21,535 nucleotides of DNA, from contig JACOUH010000213.1 in NCBI GenBank assembly GCA_016177925.1, positions 1 to 21,535 on the forward strand. The letters are read 5' to 3'. The position numbers were made by a program, and so were the translations under genes. Of the stretch, positions 1-12,525 are shown piece after piece (position 1 is the stretch's first letter; every line of letters begins with the position of its first letter). Source of the stretch: Planctomycetota bacterium (lineage in GTDB: Bacteria; Planctomycetota; Planctomycetia; Gemmatales; Gemmataceae). The notes beneath the pieces are model-generated. The model saw only the letters and a list, made by a program, of their open reading frames with translations, made no database searches and was not told where the DNA came from.

Positions 1-153
1 AGTTACGCCGGCTGCTGGATGCCGTCCTGGAGCCCGCGCCCGAACCACCACGCCGACGCCCCAAACCCCCGCTTCCCTCTCCCTTCGACAGCGGCTGACG
101 TACTTGTGTAGATACCCATGCCTGCAAGGAGAGGGGGAGCAATCCCTGTCTTT

Positions 154-180
154 CTCCCCCTCTCCGCTTCGGGGAGGGGG
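154..180. terminator. GC-rich hairpin with 11-bp stem (one G·U wobble) and 3-nt loop, downstream of the minus-strand DUF1501 gene; candidate transcript-end structure
   Basis: Seen directly: ccccctctccg (156-166), loop ctt, cggggaggggg (170-180). It sits about 50 bp beyond the stop of the 230-1498 minus-strand gene. No U-tract follows, which is expected at this GC content. Confidence 0.25.
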
Positions 181-229
181 CAGAGAAGAGGGGTTTCCTT
201 GGGTGTGCCCAGATAGCTCCCCCATGCAA

Positions 230-1498
<1,269 letters not shown>

Positions 1499-1501
1499 GT
1501 C

Positions 1502-2464
1502 TCAAAGCTCCTGCAGAATGGACTGAAGGTGTTCGCGCAGTATCTTCTCGACCTGGGGTTTGCCTCCGATGGAGTCATCATAAAAGATGACACGATAACT
1601 GCGAATATCGAAGGGCAGATCCCTGCCGCGCTGAGCAAGCAGGATCGTTGGCTTGTTGAGCGCATGCGCGTAACCGACCTCGTAATAGACATTCTGATTC
1701 GGCGCCGTGATTTCAGCGATCACCACTTTCGCGTCTTCGATCTTCTTCTGGATGTCCTGGAAGATGATGCCCGGGCCTGGAACTTCGTCGATCCGGGCAA
1801 CTTCAAAGCCCAGCGCTTGAGCTTTGGGCCGGATCACAGTCCGGTAAAGGGTGTCGTAGGGCTCCCCAAATTGCATGGCGACAAAAGCGGTGGGTGCCTT
1901 CCGTTGAACCGCAAAATCCTGAAATAGAACGGGCGATTTGGACATCGAGTAGAGGCCGAGTTGGTTTCCCGACGGGGGGCTAGACAGCAAATGCTCCAGC
2001 ACCGGGACGTCATCCACCACCAGAGAAATTCGCTGACCTTTCTGGGTCACCGTGAGCTGATAGTCCTGGTTGTAGCGGAGATTTTGAACCGAGCCGGCTC
2101 CCCGCCGAGGGACCCAGCCGGTCATCGGCAAGAACTCCCAGATCGCATACGCCAAGTCAGAGGCCCCCAACCCGGCAACCAGGTAGCCGCCCGATTCCGA
2201 CTGGTAACCGAGCACAATCCCCGCCGACTCACCCCTCAAGGGAGAGCTGGTTCCCTCGAATCGAACCTTCGCGCGGATAAGGCCATCTCGGAATCGTTCG
2301 TCACATATCGCAAGCCCATGCGCACCAGGCAAGGGCGTTGCGCCCGGACCTTCATAGTGAACGCTGCGATCCGCGATACCCCAGGAGCCGGCAATCGGCG
2401 CCCAGCGCGTAACAGGAACCCACTTTGGCTCTGCCTGGCTGATCATTCGGGTACTCACGATCAA
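1502..2464 (-). CDS. Two-domain protein of 320 aa (start TTG 2464 or ATG 2446): N-terminal DUF1080-like (3-keto-disaccharide-hydrolase / ConA-like jelly-roll) domain fused to a C-terminal nucleoside 2-deoxyribosyltransferase-like (NDT / TIR-like fold) domain; no signal peptide
   Basis: The N-terminal part (WVPVTRWAPIAGSWGIADRS ... FRDGLIRAKVRFEGTSSPLRGESAGIVLGYQSESGGYL ... GNQLGLYSMSKSPVLFQDFAV) follows the DUF1080 pattern, W..G.W.v.dg...F.l..e.r...NSGi..R ... G.iGLQ.hg..v.F.ni.i. The C-terminal part (FVAMQFGEPYDTLYRTVIRPKAQALGFEVARIDEV ... IEDAKVVIAEITAPNQNVYYEVGYAHALNKPTILLAQ) matches the NDT-like hallmark ...aD.vvA.l.....npGT.fE.GyA.AlgKPvi.l, with a candidate catalytic Glu in YYEVGYA. GC content is visibly lower than in the neighbouring genes. 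Confidence 0.7.
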   Translation of the reverse strand: MIVSTRMISQAEPKWVPVTRWAPIAGSWGIADRSVHYEGPGATPLPGAHGLAICDERFRDGLIRAKVRFEGTSSPLRGESAGIVLGYQSESGGYLVAGLGASDLAYAIWEFLPMTGWVPRRGAGSVQNLRYNQDYQLTVTQKGQRISLVVDDVPVLEHLLSSPPSGNQLGLYSMSKSPVLFQDFAVQRKAPTAFVAMQFGEPYDTLYRTVIRPKAQALGFEVARIDEVPGPGIIFQDIQKKIEDAKVVIAEITAPNQNVYYEVGYAHALNKPTILLAQRGRDLPFDIRSYRVIFYDDSIGGKPQVEKILREHLQSILQEL

Positions 2465-2555
2465 GAGACTTCTGCTGACCTCCCGCTCACCTGGATGAAT
2501 AATATCAAAACAGTAATGCTCGATGAAGGCAATACGCGGGGCAAGCTACTTTTGC
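2465..2555 (-). promoter_or_regulatory. AT-rich spacer between the PSD gene stop and the inserted gene; putative own promoter / insertion scar
   Basis: On the minus strand the stretch cattactgttttgatattattcatcc is about 27% GC in a window of about 68% GC. Candidate sigma70-like hexamers are present but none is convincing. Confidence 0.3.
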
Positions 2556-5732
<3,177 letters not shown>

Positions 5733-7432: not shown

Positions 7433-7890
7433 GGCAGACTCCTGTCTTCGTCGCGCCAGTCCAGCAGGGCGAGCAGCCCGTAAGCGAGGGCGCAGGCCCA
7501 CTGGACCGTGCTGACGTGAAGATACCAGCGATGGGCGGGATAGAACGCATCGGGATCGAGCACCGCAAAGGCGGCCGGGTCGAGGAGGGCATCGAGGTGC
7601 CGGTGCAGCCAGACCAGCAGGGCGAGCGCGACTGCCAGTCCACCCCAGCACAGCCAGCGCAGGGCCCGGCGTCGCGAGGCGGGACGAGCCGCGGCGTCCC
7701 AGGCGAGCAGCGGCAGGGCGACGGCCCCGGCGGCGTTGAGGTAGTTGGTCACGCGCCGCGTGACAAATCCCTGAAGCCGGCGCGAGAGAACTTCATGGCC
7801 GACCTGAACGACGACGGCGGCGTAGAAGGTAAAGCCGCCCTGCCAGAACATCAGGGCGGCCAGCACGAGCGCCCGACGCACCGTCGCCAC
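7420..7890 (-). CDS. Hypothetical 4-TM membrane protein (156 aa), overlapping the hydrolase start by 13 nt
   Basis: The ORF has four hydrophobic helices. It starts at GTG 7890, and its stop overlaps the start of the downstream hydrolase, so the two are probably co-transcribed. No family recognised. Confidence 0.45.
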   Translation of the reverse strand: MATVRRALVLAALMFWQGGFTFYAAVVVQVGHEVLSRRLQGFVTRRVTNYLNAAGAVALPLLAWDAAARPASRRRALRWLCWGGLAVALALLVWLHRHLDALLDPAAFAVLDPDAFYPAHRWYLHVSTVQWACALAYGLLALLDWRDEDRSLPCPS

Positions 7891-7924
7891 AGCCTCGTCT
7901 CCTCTATCATTTACGGCTCCTCCG

Positions 7925-7968
7925 GGCCCAAGGGCAAGCCTGGCCTTTCCTGGGCTTGCCCTTGGGCC
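7925..7968. promoter_or_regulatory. Perfect 16-bp-arm hairpin in the divergent intergenic region (7891-8167)
   Basis: ggcccaagggcaagcc tggcctttcctg ggcttgcccttgggcc, 35 nt upstream of the GTG 7890 gene on the minus-strand leader. Confidence 0.35.
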
Positions 7969-8167
7969 TGCTCTTTCTACCCTTCCTCAAGGGAAGTCTC
8001 CCGGATAACGGTATGGAATCTCTACTGGTCCATCTTGGGGTTGCGGTCGCCGTGCGACAACAGGTACACCACCCACTCGAAGATTTCGTCTTTCCTTGAA
8101 CGCGTCGAACAGGTGTTCCGGCATCTTCGACCCCTTCGATTGTTCAGCTGCCAGGCGAGGTCTCCCG

Positions 8168-10427: not shown

Positions 10428-10482
10428 GGATGTGCCCTCGTGAGAGATGGTTCATCAGCATTATACGCTCGTCGACCTCTCC

Positions 10483-10540
10483 CGTAGGGCAGGCGACCCG
10501 CCTGCCCTACGCGGGAGGCAGGCGAGACGCCTGCCCTACG
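10483..10540. repeat. Two tandem REP-like palindromic units (13-bp arms, 3-nt loops)
   Basis: Unit 1 is cgtagggcaggcg acc cgcctgccctacg, a perfect palindrome. Unit 2 is cgggaggcaggcg aga cgcctgccctacg, with an 8-bp perfect core. A degenerate copy lies at 8972-8995. The units sit in the divergent intergenic region between the flotillin and RluA genes. Confidence 0.6.
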
Positions 10541-10636
10541 GAAGAGGGGCGGGCGAGCCGGTTGCCGGACGCGGGGGTACAATACGGGGCATCGGGAAGA
10601 GGCCCCTCTCCTCCCCTGGCGCACTGGACACGTGTC

Positions 10637-11344
10637 GTGGATTTGCCTCCTCTGGAAATCCTGTACGAAGACAATCATTGCCTCGCCATCTACAAGCCCA
10701 GCGGCGCCCTGTCGACGCACTACGAGGGCAAGGAAGAAACCCTTGACCGCCAGGTGAAGGCCTACCTCAAGGAGAAGTACAAGAAGCCGGGCGACGTTTT
10801 CCTTGGCGTGGTGCATCGACTCGACCGGCCGGTGTCGGGCGTCTTGCTGTTCGCGCGGACGAGCAAGGCGGCGGAGCGGATCGCGCGGCAGTTCCGCGAG
10901 GGGACCGTCGACAAGGTGTACTGGGCGATCGTCGAGGGTGAACTGGTGTCGTCGGCCGGCTCGCTGGAGGACTGGCTGCTAAAGGACCGCCGCGCCGGCC
11001 GGGTCGGTCGTGTCGAGGTGGTCGAGCCGCGCACGACCGGGGCCCGGCAAGCACTCCTGCACTTCCAGCGCAAGGCGGTCCACGGCGAAGTGACGTGGGT
11101 GGAGGTGCGGCCGCAGACGGGGCGGACGCACCAGCTGCGCGTGCAGCTGGCGCACCACGGACACCCGATCTACGGCGACGCGAAGTACGGCTCGGTCCAC
11201 ACCTTCGGCCGGTCCATCGGCCTGCACGCACGCGCGCTCACCTTCCTGCACCCGGTCCGTTACGAGCCGATCACGCTGACCGCGGAGGTGCCGCGGCAGT
11301 GGCGCGGCCGGTTCGCGTACCTGCTAAGGGAGGGCCAGGTGTGA
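10637..11344 (+). CDS. RluA-family pseudouridine synthase (about 235 aa)
   Basis: The family motif HRLDRPVSGVLLFARTSKAA is present, with a conserved N-terminus ILYEDNHCLAIYKPSGALS and C-terminus GRTHQLRVQLAHHGHPIYGDAKYG. The start is probably GTG 10637; the ORF track begins at 10430 inside the repeat region. Confidence 0.85.
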   Translation: MDLPPLEILYEDNHCLAIYKPSGALSTHYEGKEETLDRQVKAYLKEKYKKPGDVFLGVVHRLDRPVSGVLLFARTSKAAERIARQFREGTVDKVYWAIVEGELVSSAGSLEDWLLKDRRAGRVGRVEVVEPRTTGARQALLHFQRKAVHGEVTWVEVRPQTGRTHQLRVQLAHHGHPIYGDAKYGSVHTFGRSIGLHARALTFLHPVRYEPITLTAEVPRQWRGRFAYLLREGQV

Positions 11345-12360
11345 GCGTCCTGAACGCCATTCGCGATCTGATTCAGCAGGACATCGGCGGCCGCGGCCTG
11401 GCGACGGACCCGGCGGAGAACCTGCTGACGCTGACGGCGGGTGACTTCACCTCGGCCTGTCGCAGCATCGCCGGCTCGCCACGGCAGCCCTCGCTGGCGG
11501 TCGTGACGGGCTTCTGGATTCCGCACGGGACGCCGCCCGCCGGCGAGACGGACGGCCCGCTCGGTGCCCTGTTCCTGGCCCGCGCGCTGGCCCCCCTGGG
11601 TTTCCGCGTGGTGCTGGCGACCGACGCGTTCTGTCTGAAGGCGCTGGAGGCGGGCCTGCGCGCGTGCGGCCTGGAGAAGCAGGTACACCTGGTGGAACTG
11701 CCGCCCGCCGCGGAGGGGACCGACGCGATGGCCTACTGGTCGGCATTCGCCAACGTGGCGGGCACGCCGACTCACCTCGTCGCCCTGGAGCGTGTCGGCC
11801 CGTCCCACTTGCCCGATTCGCTGCGAACACAGCCCGCGACAACCCCGGACGACCTGCTGCAATTCCTGTCCGAGATCCCCGTCGAGCACCACGACCGCTG
11901 TCACACGATGCGCGGGCTCGACATCACGTCGCAGATGCGACCGGCGCATCTCCTGTTCGAGGCGGCACGCCGCGTCCGCCCGTCGCTGCGGACAATCGCC
12001 ATCGGCGACGGCGGCAACGAGATTGGCATGGGCAAGCTGCCGTGGCGAGCCCTGCGGCGGAACATTCCCAACGGCGGGTTGGTGGCCTGCCGGGTGCCGG
12101 CCGACGACCTGATTGTGTGCGGCGTGAGTAACTGGGGAGCGTACGCTTTGGCTGCGGGCGTGCTACACCTGCTTGGCATCGACGACGACCCAACGCTATT
12201 CGCCGTGGAGCACGAGCGGGAGTTGCTGCGCGTGATGGTCGAGGAAGGTCCGCTCGTCGACGGCATGACGGGCCAACCGTCCGTCAGCGTGGACGGCCTC
12301 GACTTCGAGCGCTACGCGGAGCCGCTGCGGCAGTTGCCGGCCATCCTGTCCGGACCCTGA
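11341..12360 (+). CDS. DUF4392-like (D-glutamate-cyclase-like) protein, about 339 aa
   Basis: GTG at 11341 overlaps the RluA stop (GTGA). The protein begins VSVLNAIRDLIQQDIGG... and carries the glycine-rich block TIAIGDGGNEIGMGKLPW that I associate with DUF4392. The family call comes from memory of that motif only. Confidence 0.6.
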   Translation: MSVLNAIRDLIQQDIGGRGLATDPAENLLTLTAGDFTSACRSIAGSPRQPSLAVVTGFWIPHGTPPAGETDGPLGALFLARALAPLGFRVVLATDAFCLKALEAGLRACGLEKQVHLVELPPAAEGTDAMAYWSAFANVAGTPTHLVALERVGPSHLPDSLRTQPATTPDDLLQFLSEIPVEHHDRCHTMRGLDITSQMRPAHLLFEAARRVRPSLRTIAIGDGGNEIGMGKLPWRALRRNIPNGGLVACRVPADDLIVCGVSNWGAYALAAGVLHLLGIDDDPTLFAVEHERELLRVMVEEGPLVDGMTGQPSVSVDGLDFERYAEPLRQLPAILSGP

Positions 12361-12525
12361 GACCGCGTGAGCTGCCCGGCTCCGACAGTGTGCTGCGGAA
12401 GGTCCGCGAACCTTGAACGCGCCCTCCGTCTCTGATAGAGTGACAATCAATCGCAATTGTCGTCTTGACCGTCCTTACGATGGTCCGTGCCGGATCGCTA
12501 TTACCCCGGCAAGAAAGAAGCTCAC

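What the first reader, a model, noticed from the sequence alone, without database searches (positions are those of the whole stretch)
1502..2555. Compositional island: low-GC gene plus AT-rich 90-bp spacer inside a ~68% GC background
The inserted gene, especially its 3' half (e.g. gtcatcataaaagatgacacgataactgcgaatatcgaag), and the spacer 2465-2555 (minus strand cattactgttttgatattattcatcc, about 27% GC) differ from the flanking PSD and DUF1501 genes. In those genes nearly every codon ends in G or C. This is the signature of a recent horizontal acquisition that brought its own upstream region, and it independently supports the idea that the gene is an accessory insertion into a core operon.
Basis: seen in the sequence. 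Interest (0 to 1): 0.6.

Follow-up and report, generated by a model that had tools for sequence, protein, structure and literature searches.

The report
Mobile low-GC gene splitting an operon
A roughly 1.15-kb GC-poor piece of foreign DNA carrying one gene, its own promoter-like leader and a structured tail sits between two normally adjacent planctomycete genes. The gene belongs to an uncharacterised, widely travelling family that joins a lectin-like domain to a nucleotide-cleaving (DNPH1/TIR-like) domain and may be a stand-alone anti-phage protein.

Summary
The compositional island is real. The gene (minus strand, 1502-2446, 314 aa) has GC 0.579 and GC3 0.670, against GC3 0.864 ± 0.014 in 12 other genes of the contig (z = -13.5). 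Two details are wrong. The spacer is 48% GC; only a 26-nt core is 27%. The extra AT-richness of the 3' half comes from amino-acid composition (GC2), not from GC3.

The insertion reading is supported. In 53 of 65 related PSD→DUF1501 pairs the two genes abut (median 56 nt); here they are 1166 nt apart.

Homologues (882 clusters, many phyla) lie in unrelated contexts and are GC-poorer than their flanks in 48 of 49 loci. Some sit next to prophage tail genes.

The closest homologue (85% aa) shares about 100 nt upstream (TGATATTAT, extended -10-like) and 79 nt downstream (tandem hairpins). These flanks diverge far less than synonymous sites, so the unit includes them. All candidate DUF1501 start codons now lie inside inserted DNA.

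The protein has an N-terminal ConA/CBM66-like β-sandwich and a C-terminal DNPH1/TIR-like domain with an invariant catalytic Glu. A defence role is plausible but unproven, and the insertion mechanism is unknown.

The parts
2556..5732 (-). Upstream host gene. It encodes a PSCyt1/PSCyt2/PSD1 (DUF1549/DUF1553) protein of 1058 aa, and its stop codon marks the 5' boundary of the insert.
   Evidence: Pfam PF07635, PF07583 and PF07587 match. GC3 is 0.864. The tail LNLDETITKE* is identical to that of related pairs whose DUF1501 gene follows within a few nt.
2447..2555 (-). 109-nt leader that travels with the gene (48.6% GC). It holds an AT-rich core at 2493-2518 (26.9% GC) with an extended -10-like TGATATTAT (plus-strand 2499-2507, read on the minus strand), and a GAGTACCC motif about 8 nt before the ATG.
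   Evidence: The core is conserved upstream of L162 (44 nt at 86%; about 100 nt alignable) and of L167 (GAGCATTTTGATATCATT) in unrelated contexts. -10-like boxes occur upstream of many homologues, and the GAGWAYYC motif is shared with L005, L002 and L010. Promoter function is inferred, not shown; the two-hexamer scan found nothing on this strand.
1502..2446 (-). Inserted gene of 314 aa (ATG 2446, stop 1502-1504). It is MAG protein HYS12_16195, annotated 'hypothetical protein'.
   Evidence: The translation is. It is 100% identical to P0001 (314 aa), and 882 homologue clusters share the same length and architecture. dN/dS against relatives is 0.07-0.13, which indicates purifying selection. GC is 0.579 and GC3 0.670.
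1892..2446 (-). N-terminal domain (aa 1-185), a ConA-like β-sandwich. No signal peptide is evident. It is the presumed ligand- or target-binding (sensor) module.
   Evidence: The AlphaFold model has pLDDT 88.5 and pTM 0.86 and is all-β over residues 15-182. The best PDB matches are CBM66 (4b1m; E 4e-10, TM 0.78-0.83 on the target) and then DUF1080/3-keto-glycoside enzymes. The window protein has no Pfam hit here; one homologue carries PF06439. This domain is more variable than the C-terminal domain.
1505..1891 (-). C-terminal domain (aa 186-314), a DNPH1/Rcl-like and TIR-like α/β domain. The invariant Glu256 (codon 1679-1681) lies in the motif NQNVYYEVGYAHALNKP. It is the presumed N-glycosidase effector.
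   Evidence: A profile search of the PDB finds Rcl/DNPH1 (E 4e-5) with Y-E-L-G aligned to Y-E-V-G. The domain model (pLDDT 88.4) best matches DNPH1, with TM 0.69-0.77 and 24-27% identity. The PADLOC CBASS 'Effector TIR' model PDLC00733 matches at E 8.6e-17. PF05014 scores 27.9 bits, just below the cut-off of 28.8. Invariant residues are listed.
1402..1501 (-). Conserved 3' element of the insert. It holds tandem hairpin units (1402-1457; CAACTCGCGGAGCGAGTTG at 1408-1426 and a degenerate copy at 1433-1451). A GTG at 1498 lies 3 nt after the stop codon.
   Evidence: It is 90% identical over all 79 nt available in L162, whereas 45.5% of synonymous sites in the adjacent CDS differ. The repeats and palindrome are reported, and the motif occurs nowhere else in the window or in 170 other loci. 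The fold of the 121-nt region is not significant overall (z = -1.25). No T-run terminator was found.
230..1498 (-). Downstream host gene, DUF1501 (ORF as listed). Its native part starts at about 1400 (…RLVARRWFL twin-arginine signal). The candidate start codons (GTG 1498, GTG 1456, TTG 1435) all lie in inserted DNA.
   Evidence: Pfam PF07394 matches at E 1.8e-124. N-termini of related DUF1501 proteins (M-N-C-Q-D-H-x-Y-R…RRWFL) show no similarity to the window's residues 1-33, which are instead shared with L162.

Best explanation
Window 1400-2555 is a single-gene accessory cassette of about 1.15 kb. It was acquired horizontally, probably from another, lower-GC planctomycete. It lies in the same orientation exactly between the stop codon of a PSD (DUF1549/DUF1553) gene and the twin-arginine signal of its partner DUF1501 gene.

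The unit has three parts:
- a 109-nt leader with an AT-rich, extended -10-like promoter element;
- a 314-aa cytoplasmic protein;
- a conserved 3' element of about 100 nt with tandem hairpins, which now also supplies every candidate start codon for DUF1501.

Shown here: the compositional deviation, the derived (inserted) state, the context-promiscuity of the family, its family-wide GC deficit, its presence next to prophage tail modules, and co-conservation of both flanks with the closest homologue.

Inferred: the protein is a stand-alone conflict (probably anti-phage, abortive-infection-type) protein. Its variable ConA/CBM66-like β-sandwich would bind a trigger or ligand. It would thereby control a highly conserved DNPH1/TIR-like domain that uses Glu256 to cleave the N-glycosidic bond of a nucleotide (NAD+ or a (deoxy)nucleoside monophosphate), depleting an essential pool.

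The way the cassette inserts is unknown. No integrase, transposase, tRNA or target-site duplication was found.
For: Composition:
- GC3 is 0.670 against 0.864 ± 0.014, z = -13.5, with codon chi-square 230.

Inserted state:
- 53 of 65 related PSD→DUF1501 pairs abut (median 56 nt), against 1166 nt here.
- The most similar pair, L093, has an 18-nt gap.

Mobility:
- 31 of 46 homologue loci have unique 3-kb flanks, even among Bryobacterales proteins that are 76-91% identical.
- The same gene splits AtuA from AtuA_ferredoxin in L006 and L009, and sits between Peptidase_M50 and HisRS in L005 and L008.
- 150 neighbour ORFs hit 145 different Pfam families, none more than twice.

Family-wide GC deficit:
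- 48 of 49 loci are GC-poorer than their flanks, mean -6.1 points.
- The regression slope of gene GC on host GC is only 0.37.
- Low GC3 is not intrinsic to the family: L163 (79% aa identity) has GC3 0.81.

Cassette limits:
- L162 (85% aa identity) shares about 100 nt upstream and 79 of 79 nt downstream (90% identity) while synonymous sites differ by 45.5%. Homology ends where the window's PSD gene begins.

A possible vector:
- Full-length homologues (41-43% identity) lie directly after tape-measure and tail genes on viral contigs L172 and L173, with GC 0.47 against 0.59-0.60 for the contig.
- The C-terminal domain alone occurs in 45 temperate Streptococcus/Staphylococcus phage records and 121 plasmids. 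In phage SM1 it lies in the lysogeny/early region.

Protein:
- The C-terminal domain is fused to other partners, such as a macro domain and coiled coils, and has 23,107 representative relatives.

Precedents for mechanism:
- The retron Ec86 NDT-like effector depletes adenine derivatives and has catalytic E106 (bioRxiv 10.1101/2023.08.16.553469).
- Single-protein TIR-like NADases carrying an auxiliary sensor domain have been described (Swarozyc; bioRxiv 10.64898/2026.05.01.722283).
Against: - No strict positional orthologue with an empty site was found. The comparison loci share only the PSD-DUF1501 pair.
- L162 is only 1178 nt long. Its conserved downstream flank could mean it is the same DUF1501-linked locus rather than a second insertion.
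- No recombinase, repeats or tRNA explain the mobility.
- Against a defence role: homologues are embedded singly among housekeeping genes, not in defence islands, and PADLOC families are not enriched among 150 neighbours.
- Several viral-contig copies lie within 1-2.5 kb of predicted provirus edges, so some may be host flank.
- The C-terminal domain is unusually conserved across phyla, which would also fit a housekeeping enzyme.
- PF05014 and PF10137 both score below their curated cut-offs.
- The substrate, and any activity at all, are untested.
Confidence: 0.72

Rival explanations
1. The gene is native and vertically inherited. Its low GC would reflect amino-acid composition, weak expression or selection for rare codons (for example to keep a toxic protein at a low level), not horizontal transfer. 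The PSD-gene-DUF1501 order would be ancestral and lost elsewhere.
For: - The family is GC-poor relative to its host almost everywhere (48 of 49 loci). A family-specific selective constraint could produce this.
- Part of the deficit (GC2 of the C-terminal domain, 0.338) is indeed amino-acid composition.
- Protein similarity roughly tracks taxonomy: Planctomycetota 72-85%, Bryobacterales 50-55%.
Against: - GC3 is equally low in both domains and lies 13 sd below the contig's genes.
- A homologue with 79% aa identity reaches GC3 0.81 in L163, so low GC3 is not required by the protein.
- 53 of 65 PSD→DUF1501 pairs abut, and none of the 65 carries this gene.
- Flanks are unrelated even between proteins that are 91% identical.
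- The gene's own flanks move with it.
Confidence: 0.1
2. The gene is horizontally mobile but not an immune gene. It would be a nucleotide-salvage or nucleotide-sanitising enzyme (DNPH1-like hydrolysis of damaged or modified (d)NMPs, or a LOG-like activity). Its β-sandwich would bind a sugar or nucleotide-sugar substrate.
For: - The closest solved relatives are DNPH1/Rcl, housekeeping dNMP / 5-hydroxymethyl-dUMP hydrolases.
- The N-terminal domain resembles carbohydrate-binding and 3-keto-sugar enzymes.
- Neighbours are housekeeping genes with no defence enrichment.
- The C-terminal domain shows very strong purifying selection.
Against: - A housekeeping enzyme is not expected to be context-promiscuous, patchy across more than 10 phyla and persistently GC-poor, nor to sit as a low-GC moron after prophage tail genes.
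- The best HMM match is a CBASS effector model (E 8.6e-17).
- The domain is shuffled among many fusion partners and occurs in temperate-phage lysogeny regions and on plasmids.
Confidence: 0.22
3. The gene is a selfish 'hitch-hiker' or addiction gene of the same behavioural class as the small genes found at other PSD|DUF1501 junctions. It would persist because it inserts harmlessly between operon genes or is costly to lose, with no benefit to the host.
For: - 12 of 65 related junctions carry other small same-strand inserts: 23S_rRNA_IVP, Uma2, XisH/XisI, DUF4058 and a D12 methyltransferase.
- The cassette keeps the operon's orientation and offers a start codon 3 nt after its stop for the downstream gene.
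- There is no conserved partner gene.
Against: - dN/dS of 0.07-0.13 and an invariant catalytic motif show selection on the protein's activity.
- No antitoxin-like partner and no mobility enzyme was found.
- Selfishness and a defence role are not mutually exclusive.
Confidence: 0.12
4. The island is an artefact: a chimeric assembly or mis-binned fragment joined into a planctomycete contig.
For: - The window is an entire 21.5-kb MAG contig assembled from short reads.
- MAG collections do contain inconsistencies. For example, identical loci L032 and L034 are assigned to different phyla.
Against: - The foreign segment is bounded on both sides by the two halves of one conserved gene pair, in the same orientation. 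The PSD gene has an intact stop and the DUF1501 frame is intact. A random chimera would not restore this.
- The closest homologues of the gene are themselves from Planctomycetota.
Confidence: 0.03

Closest known systems
DNPH1 / Rcl (2'-deoxynucleoside 5'-phosphate N-hydrolase; NDT superfamily, Pfam PF05014 clan)
   Same: It is the best sequence and structural match of the C-terminal domain: profile E 4e-5, TM 0.69-0.77, 24-27% identity. The motif A-E-[IV]-T-x-P-x(3)-V-x-Y-E-[LV]-G is shared, and the catalytic Glu aligns with Glu256.
   Different: - The Pfam score is just below the gathering threshold (27.9 vs 28.8 bits).
- DNPH1 is a single-domain housekeeping enzyme, whereas this protein carries a 185-aa β-sandwich at its N-terminus.
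- By my reading of the β1 region, the position of the catalytic Tyr of DNPH1 appears to be a Met here; this was not tested structurally.
- The substrate is unknown.
TIR-type effectors of CBASS/Pycsar (PADLOC PDLC00733 'Effector TIR'; Pfam PF10137 CAP12/PCTIR_TIR)
   Same: This is the strongest HMM hit of the C-terminal domain (E 8.6e-17 over profile positions 260-374 of 388). The logic is the same: a sensor module fused to a Glu-dependent N-glycosidase module.
   Different: - No CD-NTase or cyclase lies nearby, either in the window or among 150 neighbours of homologues.
- PF10137 scores only 14.6 bits against a cut-off of 24.7.
- The partner domain is a ConA-like β-sandwich, not SAVED or STING.
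Single-protein TIR-like NADase defence systems (DUF4062: Swarozyc, Evangelion)
   Same: These are one-gene systems in which an auxiliary domain senses a phage protein and activates a TIR-like NADase with a catalytic Glu, causing abortive infection (bioRxiv 10.64898/2026.05.01.722283). The proposed working principle is the same.
   Different: - There is no DUF4062 Pfam hit at E ≤ 0.1.
- The domain order differs (effector at the C-terminus) and the auxiliary fold differs.
- No defence phenotype is known for this family.
Retron Ec86/Eco1 NDT-like effector
   Same: It is an NDT-superfamily domain used as an anti-phage effector that depletes nucleotide derivatives through a catalytic Glu (bioRxiv 10.1101/2023.08.16.553469).
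   Different: - It requires a reverse transcriptase and msDNA, and nothing of that kind is found near this family.
- No sequence match to it was detected in the PDB profile search.
CBM66 / DUF1080 (3-keto-disaccharide hydrolase-like) ConA-like β-sandwiches
   Same: The fold of residues 1-185 matches (Foldseek E 4e-10 to 4b1m; DUF1080 structures follow). One homologue carries PF06439.
   Different: - The window protein has no Pfam hit in this region, and identity to the structural matches is 9-15%.
- Those proteins are secreted or periplasmic sugar binders and enzymes. This domain has no evident signal peptide and is fused to a nucleotide-processing domain.
Small same-strand inserts in operons (23S_rRNA_IVP, Uma2, XisH/XisI, DUF4058) and prophage 'morons'
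   Same: The behaviour is the same: solitary, often GC-poor genes wedged between co-oriented host genes. They are seen at 12 of 65 related PSD|DUF1501 junctions. The family also sits after tail genes in prophages.
   Different: The proteins are unrelated. This unit carries recognisable conserved flanks: a promoter-like leader and 3' hairpins.

Membership tests
NDT / DNPH1 superfamily (PF05014 clan) | Sequence score above the Pfam gathering threshold | tested here: not met
   The whole protein scores 25.7 bits and the isolated C-terminal domain 27.9 bits, against a cut-off of 28.8. A profile search still finds DNPH1/Rcl at E 4e-5.
NDT / DNPH1 superfamily (PF05014 clan) | Three-layer α/β fold superposable on DNPH1/NDT | tested here: met
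   The domain model has pLDDT 88.4. The top 50 PDB hits are all DNPH1/Rcl, with TM 0.68-0.77 on the query.
NDT / DNPH1 superfamily (PF05014 clan) | Catalytic glutamate nucleophile in the Y-E-x-G motif after β4 | tested here: met
   Glu256 is invariant in 60 sequences and aligns with the YELG of Rcl. That this residue is the nucleophile in Rcl/DNPH1 comes from established knowledge.
NDT / DNPH1 superfamily (PF05014 clan) | N-glycosidase or transferase activity on (deoxy)nucleotides | not testable with these tools
   This needs an enzyme assay.
CBASS / Pycsar TIR effectors | Match to an effector TIR model | tested here: inconclusive
   PADLOC PDLC00733 matches at E 8.6e-17, but only its C-terminal 115 positions. 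Pfam PF10137 scores 14.6 bits against a cut-off of 24.7.
CBASS / Pycsar TIR effectors | Encoded next to a CD-NTase or pyrimidine cyclase | tested here: not met
   No such gene is in the window. Among 150 neighbours of homologues no family recurs more than twice, and no PADLOC cyclase is among the listed families.
DUF4062 TIR-like NADases (Swarozyc/Evangelion) | DUF4062 domain | tested here: not met
   No DUF4062 hit at E ≤ 0.1 in the Pfam scans of the protein or of its C-terminal domain.
Anti-phage defence genes in general | Enrichment next to known defence genes (defence islands) | tested here: not met
   In the PADLOC scan of 150 neighbours, only one methyltransferase-like protein and three mad2-like hits appear. 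Neighbours are housekeeping genes.
Anti-phage defence genes in general | Carriage on prophages or plasmids as cargo | tested here: met
   Full-length homologues follow tail genes on viral contigs L172 and L173. The C-terminal domain occurs in 45 phage and 121 plasmid records. Some viral-contig copies lie near provirus edges, so some caution is needed.
Classical genomic island / IS / integrative element | Integrase or transposase, tRNA target, flanking direct repeats | tested here: not met
   There are no tRNAs, no flanking direct or terminal inverted repeats bracketing 1400-2555, and no recombinase among the window's genes or the homologues' neighbours.
Integron gene cassette | Promoterless ORF followed by an attC site (R''/L''…L'/R' with GTTRRRY core), in arrays near intI | tested here: inconclusive
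   An imperfect 3' palindrome exists at 1402-1457. By inspection the core sites do not fit RYYYAAC/GTTRRRY. The unit has its own promoter-like leader, and homologues are solitary among housekeeping genes rather than in arrays. No attC model was run.
ConA-like CBM66 / DUF1080 | β-sandwich fold and family HMM match | tested here: inconclusive
   The fold requirement is met. The window protein has no Pfam hit, and one homologue has PF06439. Ligand-binding residues were not examined.

The most novel reading that the evidence does not exclude
The family would be a previously unrecognised one-gene immune system spread by temperate phages and by an unknown operon-compatible insertion route. A cytoplasmic lectin-like β-sandwich would recognise a phage-derived glycan, glycosylated or modified nucleotide, or protein. 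It would switch on a DNPH1-like hydrolase that destroys NAD+ or (modified) deoxynucleotide pools. In addition, the cassette's conserved 3' hairpin element and the GTG 3 nt after its stop would form an adaptation that re-couples translation of the downstream host gene, so that insertion inside operons is tolerated.
Probability: 0.2. Interest if true: 0.72.

Novelty: new variant of a known kind. Interest (0 to 1): 0.48.

Why it matters
As a compositional island this is an ordinary, well-documented case of horizontal acquisition. The interest lies in what was acquired.

- The family is large: 882 clusters at 90% identity, and about 160 representatives at E ≤ 1e-30.
- It is entirely uncharacterised and joins a lectin-like domain to a DNPH1/TIR-like nucleotide N-glycosidase.
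- It is found in soil Planctomycetota, Acidobacteriota and at least eight other phyla. It is always GC-poor, is context-promiscuous and is present in prophage cargo positions.
- If it is an immune protein, it adds a new sensor-effector combination to the growing set of single-gene systems that deplete NAD+ or nucleotides. It would do so in phyla where almost nothing is known about phage defence.

The locus also shows that tightly coupled operon junctions in these bacteria are often colonised by small same-strand genes (12 of 65 PSD|DUF1501 junctions). Here the insert replaces the start region of the downstream gene, which raises a testable question about how such inserts avoid polar effects.

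Tried and rejected
- Strict empty-site orthologue. A metagenome scan with the DUF1501 protein gave 80 loci, with at most 76% identity. None shares synteny beyond the PSD-DUF1501 pair, so the 'empty site' argument rests on the gene-pair family, not on a positional orthologue.
- Conserved partner or mobility gene. tblastx of 3-kb flanks and Pfam/PADLOC scans of 150 neighbour ORFs found nothing recurrent.
- Flanking direct or inverted repeats, tRNA and Rfam families. No flanking repeats, no tRNA and no Rfam match were found.
- Sigma-70 two-hexamer and intrinsic-terminator scans. No minus-strand promoter hit was found in the spacer and no terminator. The extended -10 reading comes from my inspection plus conservation.
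- RNA folding. Neither the leader (z = 0.04) nor the 3' region (z = -1.25) folds significantly better than shuffles.
- The hairpin as a genome-wide REP element. It is not repeated elsewhere in the contig or in 170 other loci.
- PSD/DUF1501 as a conserved functional partner of the gene. L003 and L001 have such genes within 1-6 kb, but adjacency is not conserved, and these gene pairs are very numerous in such genomes.
- Cross-phylum transfer from L032 and L034. The gene and flanks are 100% identical in MAGs labelled Acidobacteria and Verrucomicrobiia. This more likely reflects binning than transfer, so it was not used as evidence.
- AlphaFold-database fold search. The library was unavailable.
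- Literature on PSD/DUF1501 operons. Nothing useful was found.
Full report
**Observation**

The window is a complete 21,535-nt contig of a Planctomycetes MAG with 67.0% GC. On the minus strand, ORF 1502-2446 (ATG; an in-frame TTG lies at 2464) encodes a 314-aa protein identical to the deposited HYS12_16195.

- The gene has GC 0.579 and GC3 0.670. The flanking DUF1501 gene (230-1498) has GC3 0.863 and the PSD gene (2556-5732) has 0.864.
- Twelve confident genes of the contig have GC3 0.864 ± 0.014, which puts the target at z = -13.5.
- No 314-codon chunk of those genes falls below GC3 0.815.
- Codon-usage chi-square is 230 (df 40), against 23-119 for the other genes tested the same way.
- The lowest-GC 300-nt windows of the contig all lie in 1351-2400.

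Two details of the finding fail.
- The spacer 2465-2555 is 48% GC. Only the quoted 26-mer (2493-2518) is 27%.
- The 3' half is not compositionally more foreign than the 5' half. GC3 is 0.662 against 0.676. The difference lies in GC2 (0.338 against 0.497), which reflects the amino-acid composition of the C-terminal domain.

**Is it an insertion?**

I fetched 80 metagenomic loci that encode relatives of the DUF1501 protein.

- In 65 of them a PSD gene lies upstream on the same strand. The distance from the PSD stop to the DUF1501 twin-arginine motif has a median of 56 nt and is under 210 nt in 53 loci. In the window it is 1166 nt.
- The PSD tail LNLDETITKE* is the same in the window and in these loci. 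In the most similar pair (L093; PSD 70%, DUF1501 76% identity) only 18 nt separate the two genes.
- None of the 65 carries the target gene.
- Caveat: none of these loci shares synteny with the window beyond the pair. They therefore show the canonical arrangement of this gene-pair family, not a strict empty site.
- Twelve junctions carry other small same-strand inserts: 23S_rRNA_IVP, Uma2, XisH/XisI, DUF4058, a D12 methyltransferase and some unknowns. Such junctions are therefore colonised repeatedly.

**The family moves and is GC-poor everywhere**

- The protein has 882 homologue clusters with the same length and architecture.
- A scan of species-representative genomes found it in Planctomycetota, many Acidobacteriota (especially Bryobacterales), Verrucomicrobiia, Alpha- and Deltaproteobacteria, Spirochaetia, Dehalococcoidia, Rokubacteria, Zixibacteria and Binatia. 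All are MAGs.
- Contexts differ from locus to locus. The gene lies between AtuA and AtuA_ferredoxin in L006/L007/L009, between Peptidase_M50 and HisRS in L005/L008, next to a NiFe hydrogenase in L167, and after a threonine-dehydrogenase-like gene in L166 (my reading of the sequence; not scanned against Pfam), with 1 nt between them.
- By tblastx of 3-kb flanks, 31 of 46 loci are singletons. This holds even among Bryobacterales proteins that are 76-91% identical.
- 150 neighbouring ORFs hit 145 different Pfam families, none more than twice. There are no transposases or integrases, and no defence families are enriched.
- In 48 of 49 full-length loci the gene is GC-poorer than its flanks, by 6.1 points on average. 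Gene GC follows host GC only weakly (r = 0.44, slope 0.37).
- Low GC3 is not forced by the protein. The homologue in L163 (79% aa identity) has GC3 0.81.
- I read this as a short residence time in any one genome, with incomplete amelioration. The nearest relatives of the window's copy are other Planctomycetota (72-85% aa identity), so the donor was probably a lower-GC member of the same phylum.
- 'Recent' cannot be quantified with the data available.

**Extent of the unit**

The closest homologue, L162 (85% aa identity, 81.7% nt identity in the CDS), lies on a 1178-nt forest-soil contig.

- Its 79 nt downstream of the stop, all that the contig holds, are 90% identical to window 1423-1501 (the 79 nt immediately downstream of the stop).
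- About 100 nt upstream of its ATG align with the window, with a 44-nt core at 86% identity that includes TTTTGATATTMTTCAT.
- Further upstream, where the window has the PSD tail, similarity ends. L162 has a divergently oriented ORF there.
- Synonymous sites of the two CDS differ at 45.5% of positions (dS 0.70, dN/dS 0.13). Both flanks are therefore under constraint and belong to the unit.
- L167 (77% aa identity, unrelated context) keeps GAGCATTTTGATATCATT upstream. Many more distant homologues have -10-like boxes at a similar distance.
- I read TGATATTAT (plus-strand 2499-2507) as an extended -10 promoter element. This is an inference; the two-hexamer scan found nothing on that strand.
- The 3' element contains two tandem copies of a hairpin unit (perfect copy at 1408-1426, degenerate copy at 1433-1451) inside a 28-nt-arm palindrome. 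It occurs nowhere else in the data held. It has no T-run, and its fold energy is not exceptional.
- The native DUF1501 N-terminus seen in relatives (MNCQDH-Y-R…) is absent. The window's first 33 codons upstream of RLVARRWFL are shared with L162 instead. All candidate DUF1501 start codons (GTG 1498, 3 nt after the cassette's stop; GTG 1456; TTG 1435) therefore lie in inserted DNA.
- L162 is too short to tell whether its downstream flank leads into a DUF1501 gene. This leaves open whether the 3' element is a cassette end or a shared locus.

**The protein**

- AlphaFold (60-sequence alignment; pLDDT 88.5, pTM 0.86) gives an all-β domain over residues 15-182 and an α/β domain over residues 186-314.
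- The N-terminal domain matches CBM66 (E 4e-10) and DUF1080/3-keto-glycoside enzymes. It has no Pfam hit.
- The C-terminal domain, modelled alone (pLDDT 88.4), matches only DNPH1/Rcl among the top 50 PDB hits (TM about 0.7-0.77).
- A profile search aligns A-K-V-V-I-A-E-I-T-A-P-N-Q-N-V-Y-Y-E-V-G with the Rcl catalytic segment. This places invariant Glu256 on the catalytic Glu.
- The best HMM hit is the PADLOC CBASS 'Effector TIR' model (E 8.6e-17). PF05014 (27.9 bits against a cut-off of 28.8) and PF10137 (14.6 against 24.7) fall below their cut-offs. The domain therefore sits between the NDT and TIR-like families.
- The C-terminal domain is far more conserved than the N-terminal domain.
- The C-terminal domain has 23,107 representative relatives, including tandem-domain proteins. 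It is fused to other partners such as a macro domain and coiled coils, nearly always in GC-poor genes.
- The C-terminal domain also occurs in 45 temperate Streptococcus/Staphylococcus phage records and 121 plasmids. In phage SM1 it lies in the lysogeny/early region.
- Full-length homologues (37-43% identity) occur on IMG/VR contigs. In L172 and L173 they directly follow the tape-measure and tail genes and have GC 0.47, against 0.59-0.60 for the contig.

**Mechanism proposed**

The proposed mechanism is a stand-alone sensor-effector protein.
- The variable β-sandwich would bind a trigger.
- The conserved DNPH1/TIR-like domain would then hydrolyse the N-glycosidic bond of NAD+ or a (deoxy)nucleotide through Glu256.
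- Precedents are the retron Ec86 NDT-like effector and the single-protein TIR-like NADases with auxiliary sensor domains.

This function is inferred. The absence of defence-island association and the DNPH1 affinity keep a metabolic or sanitising role alive; I put that rival at about 0.2. How the cassette inserts is unknown: there are no repeats, tRNA or recombinase.

**Verdict**

As an island the finding is ordinary. The cargo is an uncharacterised, mobile two-domain family worth experimental testing. Novelty: a new variant of a known kind (a sensor fused to a TIR/NDT-type N-glycosidase). Interest: about 0.5.

Noticed in passing
L082-L161 (junction between the PSD and DUF1501 genes), e.g. L114:758-1225, L128:5319-5948, L107:900-1643, L129:446-1252, L099:3477-5895, L087:4950-5864: 12 of 65 related PSD→DUF1501 junctions carry other small same-strand inserts: 23S_rRNA_IVP, Uma2, XisH/XisI, DUF4058, a D12 adenine methyltransferase and unknowns. 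Several are GC-poor. This tightly coupled junction is repeatedly colonised.
   Followed up: partly
window 1402-1457 (and L162:1140-1178): A tandem hairpin / 28-nt-arm palindrome lies just downstream of the inserted gene. It is conserved at 90% identity with the closest homologue although synonymous sites differ by 45%. Its function is unknown (terminator, RNA element or recombination site).
   Followed up: partly
window 1435-1498: All candidate start codons of the DUF1501 gene lie in inserted DNA, and GTG 1498 is 3 nt after the inserted gene's stop. The insert may supply a new N-terminal extension and translational coupling to the host gene.
   Followed up: partly
L172:6031-6996 and L173:5992-6957 (IMG/VR contigs): Full-length homologues sit directly after tape-measure and tail-protein genes, with GC 0.47 against 0.59-0.60 for the contig. 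This is a prophage 'moron' position.
   Followed up: partly
L032 and L034: The gene is 100% identical and both flanks are homologous in MAGs labelled Sulfotelmatobacter (Acidobacteriota) and Verrucomicrobiia. This is probably a binning inconsistency, or otherwise a very recent transfer.
   Followed up: no
L044 and L050: One Terriglobia MAG (MFD00032.bin.1.110) carries two copies of the gene (94% identical) on different contigs. The upstream flank of one is homologous to the downstream flank of the other.
   Followed up: no
L094:4573-4721: A 149-nt PSD|DUF1501 spacer contains a long inverted repeat (gtagggtggacttcagtccaccc … ggggtgactgaagtcccccctac) and resembles a MITE/REP-like element.
   Followed up: no
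L163:1-87: A tandem octamer repeat (ggtgacaa, 4 copies) lies immediately upstream of the homologue with the highest GC3 (0.81).
   Followed up: no
P0133, P0156, P0166, P0181, P0214, P0223, P0234, P0256: These proteins of 381-538 aa carry two tandem copies of the C-terminal DNPH1/TIR-like domain.
   Followed up: no
window 120-230: A G/C-rich palindromic stretch (gagagggggagc…ctccccctctccgcttcggggagggggcagagaagagggg) lies just downstream of the DUF1501 stop and may be a terminator-like structure. Further low-GC intergenic dips occur at about 7850-8000 and about 12350-12450.
   Followed up: no
window 10430-12360: The ORFs for the RluA-type pseudouridine synthase (10430-11344) and the D-glutamate cyclase-like protein (listed from 11095) overlap by 250 nt. 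The true start of the latter is probably further downstream.
   Followed up: no
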